From contig OZ024752.1 in assembly GCA_964016885.1 (NCBI GenBank), positions 3,410,001-3,474,000 on the forward strand: DNA of 64,000 nucleotides. Direction: 5' to 3'. Below the pieces are notes generated by a model that ran no database searches, was not told the origin of the DNA, and worked only from the letters and a program-made list of their open reading frames with translations. A program made the position numbers and the translations under genes. Within the stretch, counting starts at the first letter, position 1, and every line of letters begins with the position of its first letter. Shown one piece after another: positions 79 to 39,741 of the stretch. Source of the DNA: Eledone cirrhosa (Eukaryota).

Positions 79-262
79 GTTATAGTGGTAGAACACTGGA
101 AGGTAATATCCGTAGCGGTAGAGCACTCTGCCCATGGGACGTGTTAGGTAGAAGTGGTTTTCACAACAATTGTTTCACCTTAGCGGATCCTCAGCTCTGA
201 GGATGCGCTAAGGTGAAATAATTGTTCTCGGGATGGTGAACTAACTGTTGTGTAACCACTTC
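79..262. mobile_element. PLE pseudo-LTR fold-back module, family A, flanked by (TA)n
   Basis: Inverted repeat aacaattgtttcaccttagcggatcctcag-ct-ctgaggatgcgctaaggtgaaataattgtt centred near 195. Homologous to 10931-11060, 27236-27280, 28120-28254 and 29983-30036. CTGAGGA...GAAA hammerhead core on both arms. Confidence 0.75.
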
Positions 263-2187
263 TATATATATATATATATATATATATATATATATATATA
301 TATATATATATATATATATGAGGGAGAGAGGGATTGAAAGTGAATCTGATCGATGAGTCAAGCATCAGTCTATTATTCTCCTGTGCTCTCGGTAGTTCCT
401 TTGCTTTATAGGTTTCTCCATAGTCATATAACATTATGTTTCCCCTTCCTCTCGTTGATGTCCCCATGTATCTTATTCATTCATATGCACGTGGCTAGAC
501 TCTCGGAATCTTGCTTTCCCAGGTATACGTTTGTCTCTTAGCAAGGATGATTTTTTTCTAACGTCTTCGTGTCTGGAAAAATAATCCTCCTATATATTCA
601 AGATATTCTTCACGTGATTTTGGTTTTTACTGATTAATCGTTTCGACACCAAGCATCATTCTTTACCGAATATATTACTGTTACACATAGGATGTTTAAC
701 TGTAAATATGATTTCTGCTGATACTGGTCGATTTCAAGAAGTCATTCTAATTCAGCAAGAACCTACCATAAAAGAGACTGCAGCTATGTCTCGATAACCA
801 TCATTAAAATCTAAATACCTCAGTATAAAAGTGATCTTCCTGAGATCACTCTTAACTATATGAAATTATGAATATTTAGAAACCACTATTTTAAAGTATA
901 TTTTCTTATTCTTCTGACATATAGTTAAAATACAGACGATGTTTATTGACGATATCACTGGAGACCATGGGAAAATATGTGGTATGATATATTGGACAAA
1001 GTATACCTACGTGTATAAGGCTGCTATTACTATTCTGAAATAACATATAGGACATCAGTAGAAAGCATGAAGTAAGGAAATATCTCAACGTAAGCAATTC
1101 AGGCGGATAAAAAGGAACTAGAAAAACATTAAAAACACGCGCCAACGAATCGGACATTTAACTACCATCATAATGCGTAAATGTAATCGCAGGTTCACAG
1201 TACATCAACTGATTCTCATAAAACAAACCTGTTTAAAATGTACTGAGATACTATATACCTAACTATTGAGGAAAATTGCTTTGAAACATGTAATGAAACG
1301 AGCAAGCTTTGATTACATGTTTGGTTCTAATGCTTACGCAGGCCACGTAAAGGAAGACGAATAGAAATGATATGTTCTTAAAAGGAAAAACATTCAAGGA
1401 AGATTTTGAATATATTTCGTCCAACATCTGGAATGAAATTCAGAATGCGCAATAGTGATATTAAATGAAGGATTATATTTATACCAACAGATTTAAATAT
1501 TCTTGAAGATACTTGTGAATTCGTGTGAATTAAAATGATTTGGTGGTTGGTAACATTTTTAAAAGGATATTACACGTTCTAGAGGTAGAAATGGAGATAA
1601 TTAAAACGAAGAGAAGAAAATTCAGATATGGAGAAAATGTTAAAAAATAAGACGAAGGCAAAAATAATTCATAAATTGTAAATTGGGTTCGTAAATTAGA
1701 TATTTTTAACAATCGGAAATCAATTACAGTCAAAATATTATATACATTTTATGTTAGATAATATTGAAATTACAAAAAACTGTTTACGCAGTTTTACTTA
1801 ACGTGGTTATAATCCAGGTTCATATTTTCCATTATTTTATTTCAATCAAACGTTCGTCGTAGCTGTAAAATTCCATATTTCATGTACATCATGTAAATGG
1901 TCTATTAGGTATTTAAATTGGGTTTCATATATGGCAGCTATTTTCTGTGTGTTACTGCGAGTACTAGCAAACAAACATGCAGACATATACACACACAAAC
2001 ATACAAACGCTGACACACACACACACACATATATATATATATATATATGGTGGCGGGGTGTGAGGATGTATGTGTGTGTGTAGACACCTGACTATCTTTG
2101 CAGACGTCACCAATTCTTTGTTTTGAATAAATTAGCCTTAAAAATGTGGAGTGCCTCTCAGCGAGTTTGTCTATAGGTACTTAGCTG

Positions 2188-2468
2188 AATTTTGTTCTGC
2201 CTTTGTTTCTCTAAGTATAGTTTTTAAAGAATCCCCTTTCTTTAAATTCAAGAACCAATGACCTCCACCCATCCCAATCACAACCCTCTCCTACCACCAG
2301 AAAATGTATAAATCCATCATATTACTTGGACAGTCCGCTTCCTGGCGATTTCTCCCAAATGAAACAGTTCTAGACCTGTAGAAGCCATTTTTATATTAAA
2401 TAGTTATACTTTGATATATATTGAGTACCTTACTTAGTGTGGTTACCACCGATTGAACCCCTATAAAC
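2188..2468 (+). mobile_element. PLE pseudo-LTR module, family B (degenerate, long terminus)
   Basis: Aligns with 18218-18448 and 11183-11315 (gaaacagttctag.cctgtagaa...attgagtaccttactta). Ends in (TA)n. Confidence 0.65.
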
Positions 2469-2531
2469 ATATATATATATATATATATATATATATATAT
2501 ATATATATATATATATATATATATATATATA

Positions 2532-36907: not shown

Positions 36908-38090
36908 TCTATATATATAAAACTGTGGTTGTCTGTCTGTCTATCGATTTTTGGCAGACATCTCCTCTTAGAATCTCTCACGGAATTGCACCGAAATTGC
37001 TATACTTGTACATTGAGCCCTAGCGAGGACATCGGAAAAAAAATATTTCGAATTGACCCGCCCTATCTGACGAAATCGAATATAATGTATCGATTTTTGA
37101 GCGTAAGTGATCAGTTATTTCCCTTTGTTCTGTTTACATTCAGCGTAGCGTCTTACGTTCTCTTTACATTTTCTGCGTGCAAAAATTAAAAAAATTACGC
37201 TGGCAAAAATTAAAAAAATTACGCTGTCTTTCTCAGCGTTTAAAATGGCATTAACACAATACACGAACAGTTGTCGAGCCAGCAAAATTTTGACCTGCAA
37301 AATTCATCAGTTCGAACACTAAGCTTCCGTTTTGCTTCATTTCCATTTAAAAGCCTTTTAAAACAATATTTTTACTTGAAAACAAGTATATTTAAAGACT
37401 ACGTAAAACAAGCAAATATTTCGTAAAAAAAAGCAAAAATGATATAAGTTTATTTAAAATATATGTATCTGTAAATTTCGTTAGGCGTGCAGACAGACAG
37501 TCGTGCAGAGAGGTGATATACGCGTGCAGACAGACAGTCGTGCAGAGAGGTGATATAGGCGTGCAGACAGACAGTTATGCAGAGAGGTGATATAGGCGTG
37601 CAGACAGACAGTCATGCAGAGAGGTGATATAGGCGATTATTTCCCTTTTATGGAATGAGCAGACGATTAGCGAATGTGCAGACGATTAAGTAAATCTTTA
37701 GTAGAGTGAATTGGAATCTCCAGTTTGTTTAATAGCTTCATTTGCACTGTACTGCCTTTGTATGCTACAACGCTTTAAAAGTTCGGCGAGTTCATTACTT
37801 CGTAAGTTATTGATATTTATTTTTTTATTACAACGGTTAGCAAACTTTCCCTATTAAACGTTTAAATTTATTTTACGGTCTTATAAGGCTGAATTTACTT
37901 TAATTCGGGTTATCGTTATGTTTTCTTAACTTCATAAGGCATATTGTTGGTTGAGGGAATATTAATCAAAAACACCACATGCAAGTCTGCACAGTAGACA
38001 CTACAGTTTTTAAGCCAAAAAAGAAACTTAACATTGTAACTTTAACACAGCTACTGAGCGACCCCGAGCAACGCCGGGCTTTACTGCTGG
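36908..38090 (+). mobile_element. Non-autonomous Helitron-like element
   Basis: 5' TC-tatatatataaaa then (TGTC)n. 3' hairpin cccgagcaacgccggg then CTGG|T. Internal 37-bp minisatellite. Confidence 0.65.
37482..37635 (+). repeat. 37-bp tandem repeat, 4 copies
   Basis: Unit taggcgtgcagacagacagtcgtgcagagaggtgata. Confidence 0.9.
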
Positions 38091-39692
38091 TATATATATA
38101 TAAATACATACATATATATATATATATATATAAATACATATATATATATATATATATATATATATATATATATATATATATATATATAAATACATATATA
38201 TATATATATATATATATATATAAATACATACATATATGTATATATATATATATATATATATATATATAAATACATACATATATATATATATATAAATACA
38301 TACATATATATATATATATATATATATATATATATATACATATATATATATATATATATATATATATAAATACATACATATACATATATATATATATATA
38401 TATATATATATATATATAAATACATACATATATATATATATATATATATATATATATATATATATATATATATACATATATATATATATATATATATATA
38501 TATATATATATACATATATATATATATATATATATACATATATATATATATATATATATATACATATATATATATATATAAATATATATAATATAGGTAT
38601 GTATATAATATATGTATGTATATAATATATGTATGTATATATGTATGTATATATATATGTATGTACTTATATATATATGTATTTATATATATATGTATTT
38701 ATATATATATATATATATATATATATATATATATATATGTATATATATATATATATATATATATATATATATATATATATATATATATATATATATATAT
38801 ATGTATATATATATATATATGTATATATATATATATATATATATATATATATATATATATATATATATATATATATATGTATATATATATATATATGTAT
38901 ATATATATATATATATATATATATATATATATATATATATGTATATATATATATATATGTATATATATATATATATATATATATATATATGTATATATAT
39001 ATATATATGTATATATATATATATATATATATATATATATATGTATATATATATATATATGTATATATGTATATATATATATATATGTATATATATATGT
39101 ATATATATATATATATATATATATATATATATATATATATATATATATATATATATATATATATATATATATATATACATATATATATATATATATATAC
39201 ATATATATATATATATACATATATATATATATATATATATATATATATACATATATATATATATATACATATATATATATATATATATATATATATATAT
39301 ATATATATATATACATATATATATATATATACATATATATATATATATATATATATATATATATATATATATATATATATATATATATATATATATATAT
39401 ACATATATATATATATATACATATATATATATATATATATATATATATATATATATACATATATATATATATATATATATATATATAAATACATATATAT
39501 ATAAATACATATATATATAAGTACATACATATATATATACATACATATATACATACATATATTATATACATACATATATTATATACATACCTATATTATA
39601 TATATTTATATATATATATATATATATATATATATATATATATATATATATATATATATATATATATATATATATATATATATATATATATA
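38091..39692. repeat. 1.6-kb interrupted (TA)n tract containing a ~1-kb inverted duplication
   Basis: Interruption pattern at ~38580-38700 is the reverse complement of ~39487-39607. G interruptions lie left of ~39100-39170 and C interruptions right of it. Confidence 0.85.
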
Positions 39693-39741
39693 GGAACGAG
39701 TAGGACCCCGACGGCTGAGCTCAAACCGTTTCGACGGCTAA

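What the first reader, a model, noticed from the sequence alone, without database searches (positions are those of the whole stretch)
79..39740. Two-terminus rule: both ends are outward-facing 3' ends, one long (with tail) and one short at a fixed internal point
Seen: independent copies of a family stop at the same two points. Family A has short end ccacttc|TA (262, 10931; variants at 27236, 29983) and long end …cac|TA (~85, 11060, 28254). Family B has short attaaaac| (11087, 18448) and long (2468, 11315). Family C has short ttttaat| (4260, 21563) and long (2532, 22346). Families D, F, G and H behave the same way. In A, C, D and F the short end falls where the element itself reads TA or AT. 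Inference: both cut strands of the symmetric (TA)n target prime cDNA synthesis, one at the RNA 3' end and one by TA microhomology just before the tail, and the cDNAs join head-to-head. The same region is copied twice, so two templates are needed, which fits a ribozyme-paired RNA dimer. Some copies show only one end (18218-18448, 29983-30740).
Basis: partly seen in the sequence, partly recalled or inferred. Interest (0 to 1): 0.75.

Follow-up and report, generated by a model that had tools for sequence, protein, structure and literature searches.

The report
Penelope retroelements: one long, one short
These are back-to-back copies of known Penelope-type jumping genes sitting in TA repeats, and about 96 in 100 such copies end at one fixed "long" and one fixed "short" point, which likely means the enzyme starts copying twice, at two internal sites of a single RNA.

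Summary
Observation confirmed and extended. The repeats are Hydra-clade Penelope-like elements (PLEs) in (TA)n. Genome-wide, family A head-to-head insertions are long/short in 583 cases, long/long-type in 17 and short/short-type in 6; in family G long/long-type is 799 of 29,005 matches. About a third of copies have only one arm. The layout (inverted pLTR, tail at one end only) is published, and two internal reverse-transcription start sites with both strands extended were shown in vitro (PMC8557442, PMC3846280, PMC11167929). The long end is not the element's end: read-through copies continue with TAT(ATA) into the 5' UTR and ORF. TA at the short end is only 1-5 nt. A ribozyme-paired dimer is not needed: arms cross the predicted cut site, family G has no canonical core, and the two arms share subfamily and length class. 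Strict asymmetry fits one RNA primed at two sites better than two equal RNAs (inferred). Added here: the counts, tails of 61-94 nt, a sharp upstream edge. The scan reported this system several times before on other DNA of this genome.

The parts
85..262 (.). Family A head-to-head insertion: long arm on - (85-197), short arm on + (197-262); hammerhead cores at 197-226 (+) and 194-165 (-)
10931..11060 (.). Family A: short arm on - (10931-11006, flanked by (GA)n), long arm on + (11009-11060) that is tail only; arms do not overlap
27236..28254 (.). Family A: short arm on - (27236-27280), long arm on + (27278-28254) with broken GIY-YIG endonuclease remnant, part of it present twice
29983..30740 (-). 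A-like subfamily, single arm with short end at 29983 and linker/endonuclease remnant at about 30545-30269
2218..2468 (+). Family B single long arm (older variant; may begin further upstream)
11087..11316 (.). Family B head-to-head insertion: short arm on - (11087-11147), long arm on + (11161-11316)
18218..18448 (+). Family B single short arm, hammerhead core at 18389-18422
2532..4259 (.). Family C head-to-head insertion: long arm on - (2532 to about 4090, with Hydra-type linker and GIY-YIG remnant at 4053-3392, interrupted by a microsatellite-rich stretch), short arm on + (about 4106-4259)
21565..22346 (.). Family C head-to-head insertion: short arm on -, long arm on +
22381..22462 (-). Family C-like single short arm
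7158..7379 (.). Family G head-to-head insertion (old copy): long arm on -, short arm on +
13751..13871 (-). Family G single long arm
35034..35171 (+). Family G single long arm
39693..39740 (-). Family G single short arm
25593..25892 (.). Family F head-to-head insertion: short arm on - (with an internal deletion, flanked by (GA)n), long arm on +
10165..10368 (-). Family F long arm; its long site is followed by non-repeat sequence that may be the element's continuation (one copy only)
17193..17636 (.). Family D head-to-head copy (non-coding 420-bp unit elsewhere in tandem); long arm on -, other arm ends in an internal TA run
31508..32255 (.). Family D head-to-head copy; hammerhead core at 31950 (+)

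Best explanation
These are insertions of Hydra-clade Penelope-like retroelements in (TA)n whose two-armed copies end at one long and one short fixed site, likely because the element's enzyme primes both cut target strands at two internal sites of one RNA. Shown: two fixed ends 61-94 nt apart; one-of-each pairing; the element reads on past the long site; both arms share subfamily and mostly length class; arms cross the predicted ribozyme cut; centres carry microhomology or short inserts. Inferred: an RT-endonuclease dimer cuts both strands of (TA)n; each 3'-OH pairs by 1-6 nt of TA with one of the two sites, which are set mainly by RNA structure or protein footprint; both cDNAs run toward the RNA 5' end, the trailing one displacing the leading one; their 3' ends are joined head to head by microhomology-type end joining. 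The many 100-250 bp copies would come from the pLTR/tail window near the RNA 5' end, the long ones from the downstream window.
For: Pairing: A; G. Exceptions are partly secondary: of 10 long/long-type loci read, 5 are full long/long, and L143, L150, L152 share private changes on both arms, L150 also its flank; of 6 short/short-type, 2 are true, 3 are separate insertions, 1 is a mutated long/long. Read-through past the long site: most of the 25 loci (A), L032 (G), L116/L206 (C), L175 and others (D). Same source: shared minor alleles between arms 31 vs 4.3 under shuffling, 11 vs 1.9 for alleles at 8% or less, 3 vs 0.7 (P 0.037) at 4% or less; position -61 concordant in 41 of 43. Length class: both arms beyond -120 in 10, long arm only 0, short arm only 2, neither 60, Fisher P 1e-10. 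Sharp upstream edge: A 18 arm ends in -100..-91, 2 in -110..-101; G 17 of 50 arm ends at -57/-56, none beyond -64. Neither arm is nested in the other: short arm reaches further in 27 of 72, long in 25. In vitro support: two adjacent internal RT start sites, both strands extended, hammerhead cleavage dispensable, predicted protein dimer (PMC11167929).
Against: One RNA is inferred, not shown. Strand displacement by this RT is untested. Concordance could also come from sister transcripts of one locus, subfamilies active at different times, or conversion between inverted arms; the arms still differ at 5.4% of sites against 6.5% for shuffled pairs. The length link fails in read-through copies picked separately (partner long arms start anywhere from +24 to -696). 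Only 7 of 72 long arms stop inside the tail, with no peak at the short site, so no sign of collision. Head-to-head joins between families exist: 3 of 188 (L003 C-short/A-long, L302 G-short/A-short, L225 a copy of the neighbouring C end) and L284 (C-short/A-short); two break the rule. PAc initiated at sites not homologous to the cut DNA. The hairpin 6 nt behind the end was found in only 4 of 12 sequences.
Confidence: 0.6

Rival explanations
1. Two RNAs, one per RT subunit, held in an asymmetric complex; one is primed at the long and one at the short site.
For: The overlap region is copied twice in 65 of 72 insertions. A, D and F hammerheads have palindromic helix III, the dimer type (PMC4209133). 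Rare between-family joins.
Against: Needs an extra source of asymmetry. Subfamily and length concordance. G (no canonical core found) and B (helix III loop not palindromic) follow the rule. Between-family joins are 3 of 188 and not rule-bound. Dimers of these ribozymes are described in cis, in tandem copies.
Confidence: 0.2
2. The short end is made by the endonuclease cutting the cDNA intermediate at an element-internal TA, not by a second RT start (the 'EN-mediated resolution' suggested in PMC8557442).
For: Most ends fall on TA or TAT, which is what a (TA)n-cutting nuclease would pick; gives one-of-each pairing naturally.
Against: B's short site reads C|TTTT. In PAc both tail borders map to RT start sites. 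Short arms often reach further upstream than long arms, and 7 of 72 pairs do not overlap, so the short arm is not a trimmed copy of the long one.
Confidence: 0.12
3. Fold-back or self-priming: one cDNA snaps back at a small palindrome and copies itself (akin to the self-priming idea in PMC3846280), or whole inverted units are copied as such.
For: Some centres are perfect palindromes (AGCT, AATT, GATC); long/long exceptions with shared private changes look like this.
Against: Arms start within 5 nt of each other in only 20 of 72; short arm extends beyond the long arm in 27 of 72; most centres are unique.
Confidence: 0.08

Closest known systems
Endonuclease-bearing PLE insertions with inverted pLTR and one-sided tail (Craig et al. 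2021, PMC8557442, Fig. 2 legend; Arkhipova et al. 2013, PMC3846280)
   Same: [quoted passage not shown]
   Different: Tail here 61-94 nt against 30-40; pairing counted here genome-wide (96%); no such count in the passages read.
Hydra clade of PLEs, e.g. Hydra-1_Obim (PMC8557442 section 11 and supplement)
   Same: C-terminal GIY-YIG, RWR/RWK, DKT, YRDD, CxCX5C linker, CxxC and CxH motifs, hammerhead, (TA)n, under 3 kb; family A follows Hydra-1_Obim motif by motif by eye.
   Different: [quoted passage not shown]
Poseidon_Ac internal RT initiation (Frangieh et al. 2024, PMC11167929)
   Same: Two adjacent internal start sites that bound the tail; both target strands cut and extended; uncut RNA is the template.
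   Different: Other clade; sites lie in the ORF there, upstream of the 5' UTR here; no target homology there, 1-6 nt of TA here; pairing of the two sites within one insertion is not reported in the parts read.
L1 twin priming
   Same: Two target ends prime on one RNA, cDNAs join head to head with microhomology.
   Different: In L1 the inner site is variable and the arms barely overlap; here both sites are fixed and the arms overlap in 65 of 72.
Non-LTR retrozymes (bioRxiv 10.64898/2026.07.22.740005, part 1 read)
   Same: Family D (420-bp unit) and a 257-bp G unit occur as non-coding tandems related to pLTRs.
   Different: Most copies here are inverted single units, not tandem arrays.

Membership tests
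Penelope-like element, EN+ | RT plus GIY-YIG endonuclease in one ORF | tested here: met
   Translations of L159, L188, L097 show RT motifs (QFDIVDFYP, MGS.D, YRDD) followed by YVG/YIG endonuclease. By motif only: Pfam and PDB gave no hit.
Penelope-like element, EN+ | pLTRs in partial tandem or inverted, optional tail | tested here: met
Penelope-like element, EN+ | Hammerhead motif in the pLTR | tested here: inconclusive
   Core found by motif scan in A, B, D and, as a U3-A8 variant, F; none in C or G references. Rfam found none in A or G stretches. Cleavage not tested.
Hydra clade | RWK-like motif near the N-terminus and DKT motif | tested here: met
   A: RLRWR and SDKTNN; C: RLRWR; definition
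Hydra clade | CxCX5C linker; CxxC and CxH around the conserved E and N | tested here: met
   A: CSCRKPEAC, CGLC, CPH; C remnant: CNCRNRVDC, CDFC, CKH; G: CNLC, CKH, linker decayed in the copy read
Hydra clade | (TA)n insertion preference | tested here: met
   58 of 72 family A insertions have TA runs on both sides, all 72 on at least one; most of these loci were selected on an end next to TA
Hydra clade | Placement in the RT phylogeny | not tested
   No reference sequences were available as tool data; comparison with Hydra-1_Obim by eye only. B, D, F: no ORF examined, so assignment rests on layout.
L1-type twin priming | Variable inner priming site, non-overlapping arms | tested here: not met
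   Inner site fixed; overlap in 65 of 72. Works like it, is not it.
MITE / TIR DNA transposon | Symmetric termini and a fixed internal structure | tested here: not met
   Termini differ by 61-94 nt and centres are mostly unique

The most novel reading that the evidence does not exclude
PLE integration is an obligatorily asymmetric twin priming: one RT-endonuclease dimer holds one uncut RNA, sets one cut target strand on the long site and the other on the short site (marked by a small hairpin about 6 nt downstream), copies the same stretch twice by strand displacement, runs off the RNA 5' end and joins the cDNA ends. This one step would explain the tail, the inverted pLTR and tens of thousands of MITE-looking hairpin repeats.
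Probability: 0.5. Interest if true: 0.65.

Novelty: new member of a known kind. Interest (0 to 1): 0.45.

Why it matters
How PLEs, the closest retroelement relatives of telomerase, make their inverted repeats and one-sided tail is still open (PMC8557442 names it as the next task). The strict one-long/one-short count turns it into a per-molecule prediction for the existing in vitro system. For annotation: at least 14,000 family G hairpin copies per strand in this genome look like MITEs but are PLE ends.

Tried and rejected
Rfam on the whole window returned only microsatellite noise among the 150 of 389 rows shown; none on A or G pLTR stretches. Pfam and PDB sequence searches gave no hit for the RT or endonuclease pieces. 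Sequencing runs: no RNA holder listed, so RNA ends were not mapped; no reads were laid. The idea that the element continues as TATAAC (window 79-85) failed: 2 genomic matches; the continuation is TATATACG. Automatic pairing for family D was discarded. Nine 'long/long' pairs are read-through arms from loci selected for the 5' UTR, not true long/long. Target-site duplications cannot be read inside (TA)n. Literature searches for a published pairing count or twin-priming model in PLEs found none beyond the papers cited; subscription papers (e.g. [quoted passage not shown] Supplements of PMC11167929 were not read and may bear on per-molecule pairing.

Full report
Setting. The window lies on C12 of a 3.0-Gb animal genome, AT-rich and full of (TA)n; an octopus is likely, inferred from likeness to Hydra-1_Obim. 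Self-comparison shows many short repeats in both orientations next to TA runs.

Observation. Exact family A ends followed by (TA)5 number 1,674 short and 1,579 long, controls 0. Of 650 head-to-head pairs with both cores exact, 583 are long/short, 17 long/long-type, 6 short/short-type and 44 have other letters at the deciding bases. Of the 10 long/long-type loci fetched, 5 are complete long/long; of the 6 short/short-type, 2 are true. Several exceptions share private changes and even flanks on both sides, which points to later DNA duplication. For G, long/long-type is 799 of 29,005 matches. In fetched loci (80 evenly spaced 10-kb stretches, plus search loci) B, C, F and G give 66 long/short, 1 long/long, 1 short/short and 19 pairs with an arm ending elsewhere, of 87. 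About a third of copies have one arm (my reading: 16 of 50 and 19 of 50, including chimeras and copies that run out of the stretch).

What it is. Family A copies read: endonuclease end, 3' UTR, hammerhead, short site, 66-nt tail, long site, TATATA, 5' UTR, ORF. [quoted passage not shown] C and G have ORFs of the same type. D is a non-coding 420-bp unit that also occurs in tandem. Tails measure A 66, G 80, B 68, C 94, F 65, D 61 nt.

Mechanism tests. (1) The long site is internal: A, C, D, G read on with TATATA, TAT, TAT, TAT; B's continuation was not found and F's rests on one copy. Priming on a (UA)n run read through from a flank is not excluded. (2) TA match at short sites is A 2, B 1, C 3, D 5, F 2, G 3 nt; A has 10 TA dinucleotides from -30 to +66, so TA alone cannot choose the site. 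A hairpin motif, a lead from earlier scan notes, starts exactly 6 nt after A-short, B-short, C-long and G-long, 4 of 12 sequences, about 1% chance each; absent by this scan at A-long, C-short, D, F and mutated in the G-short reference. (3) In 72 family A long/short insertions (loci L143-L158 left out as selected exceptions), the short arm reaches further upstream in 27, the long in 25, within 5 nt in 20; 7 long arms stay inside the tail. Fold-back is thus out for most. (4) 55 long and 69 short arms cross the predicted cut near -36: the template was uncut or re-ligated. (5) Arms share minor alleles (31 vs 4.3; rare ones 11 vs 1.9 and 3 vs 0.7) and length class (10/0/2/60, P 1e-10); the link is loose in read-through copies. 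(6) Upstream ends pile up at an edge near -100 in A and -57 in G, as expected for run-off at an RNA 5' end (inferred; no RNA data). (7) Centres: 25 of 42 insert-free joints have 2 nt or more of exact microhomology against 16% in the null; 30 of 72 have inserts, some copied from nearby element sequence. (8) Between-family head-to-head joins are 3 of 188 plus L284; one obeys the rule, two are short/short, one copies neighbouring DNA.

Reading. One RNA has one long and one short site per window, so two active sites on one RNA give one-of-each without further assumptions; two equal RNAs do not. I put one RNA at 0.6, an asymmetric two-RNA complex at 0.2, nuclease trimming at 0.12, fold-back at 0.08.

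Literature seen. PMC11167929: parts 1-2 of 4 (abstract, main text, start of methods). PMC8557442: passages, section 11, supplement look-ups. PMC3846280 and PMC4209133: passages. bioRxiv 10.64898/2026.07.22.740005: part 1 of 5. PMC13282606: passages, nothing on this structure in them. L1 twin priming is recalled. The inverted layout, one-sided tail and two start sites are published; a count of the pairing was not found in searches. Earlier notes of this scan describe the same system elsewhere in this genome; they are not independent evidence.

Verdict. Real, strict, and a sharper statement of a known PLE hallmark in new Hydra families; the mechanism is directly testable. Interest 0.45.

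Noticed in passing
window 16483-16783, 17744-18087, 28824-29319, 29694-29778: Further near-perfect inverted repeats next to TA runs (87-98% arm identity); probably more families of the same kind.
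   Followed up: no
window 39741-40880: GC-richer stretch with coding-like sequence directly behind the single G short arm; looks like a DNA-transposase remnant (impression from a recalled motif, untested).
   Followed up: no
window 38091-39692: 1.6-kb degenerate (TA)n tract.
   Followed up: no
window 5115-5500, 16998-17180, 26496-26695, 41874-42073, 61039-61148; L216: A 190-bp dispersed repeat with a fixed end; in L216 it is joined head to head, inverted, to a family A long arm.
   Followed up: partly
L032:9450-10000; L175: Non-coding tandems: a 257-bp G unit made of pLTR, tail, 5' UTR and the first codons, joined back at the G upstream edge; 420-bp D units. Retrozyme-like.
   Followed up: partly
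G000:C1:4946977, 18731457, 20837993: Runs of about 15-20 A at the cDNA end of G arms, at the inversion centre: untemplated addition or slippage at the template end.
   Followed up: no
L150, L157, L158, L169: Symmetric exceptions whose arms share private changes and in part their flanks: secondary palindromes made at DNA level.
   Followed up: partly
window 25720-25760; family F: Hammerhead core with U3-A8 in place of C3-G8 and palindromic helix III.
   Followed up: partly
L097:8345-8500; family G: No canonical hammerhead core in the most abundant family, but GAAAC, a long stem and GUC lie just upstream of the short site; a rearranged ribozyme is possible.
   Followed up: no
L181, L198, L180, L203: A few family A copies end about 125-145 nt beyond the long site, two at the same base: a possible third, minor start site.
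   Followed up: no
L225: A family A long arm is capped by an inverted 32-bp copy of the neighbouring family C end with the same private variant: capture of target-side DNA.
   Followed up: partly
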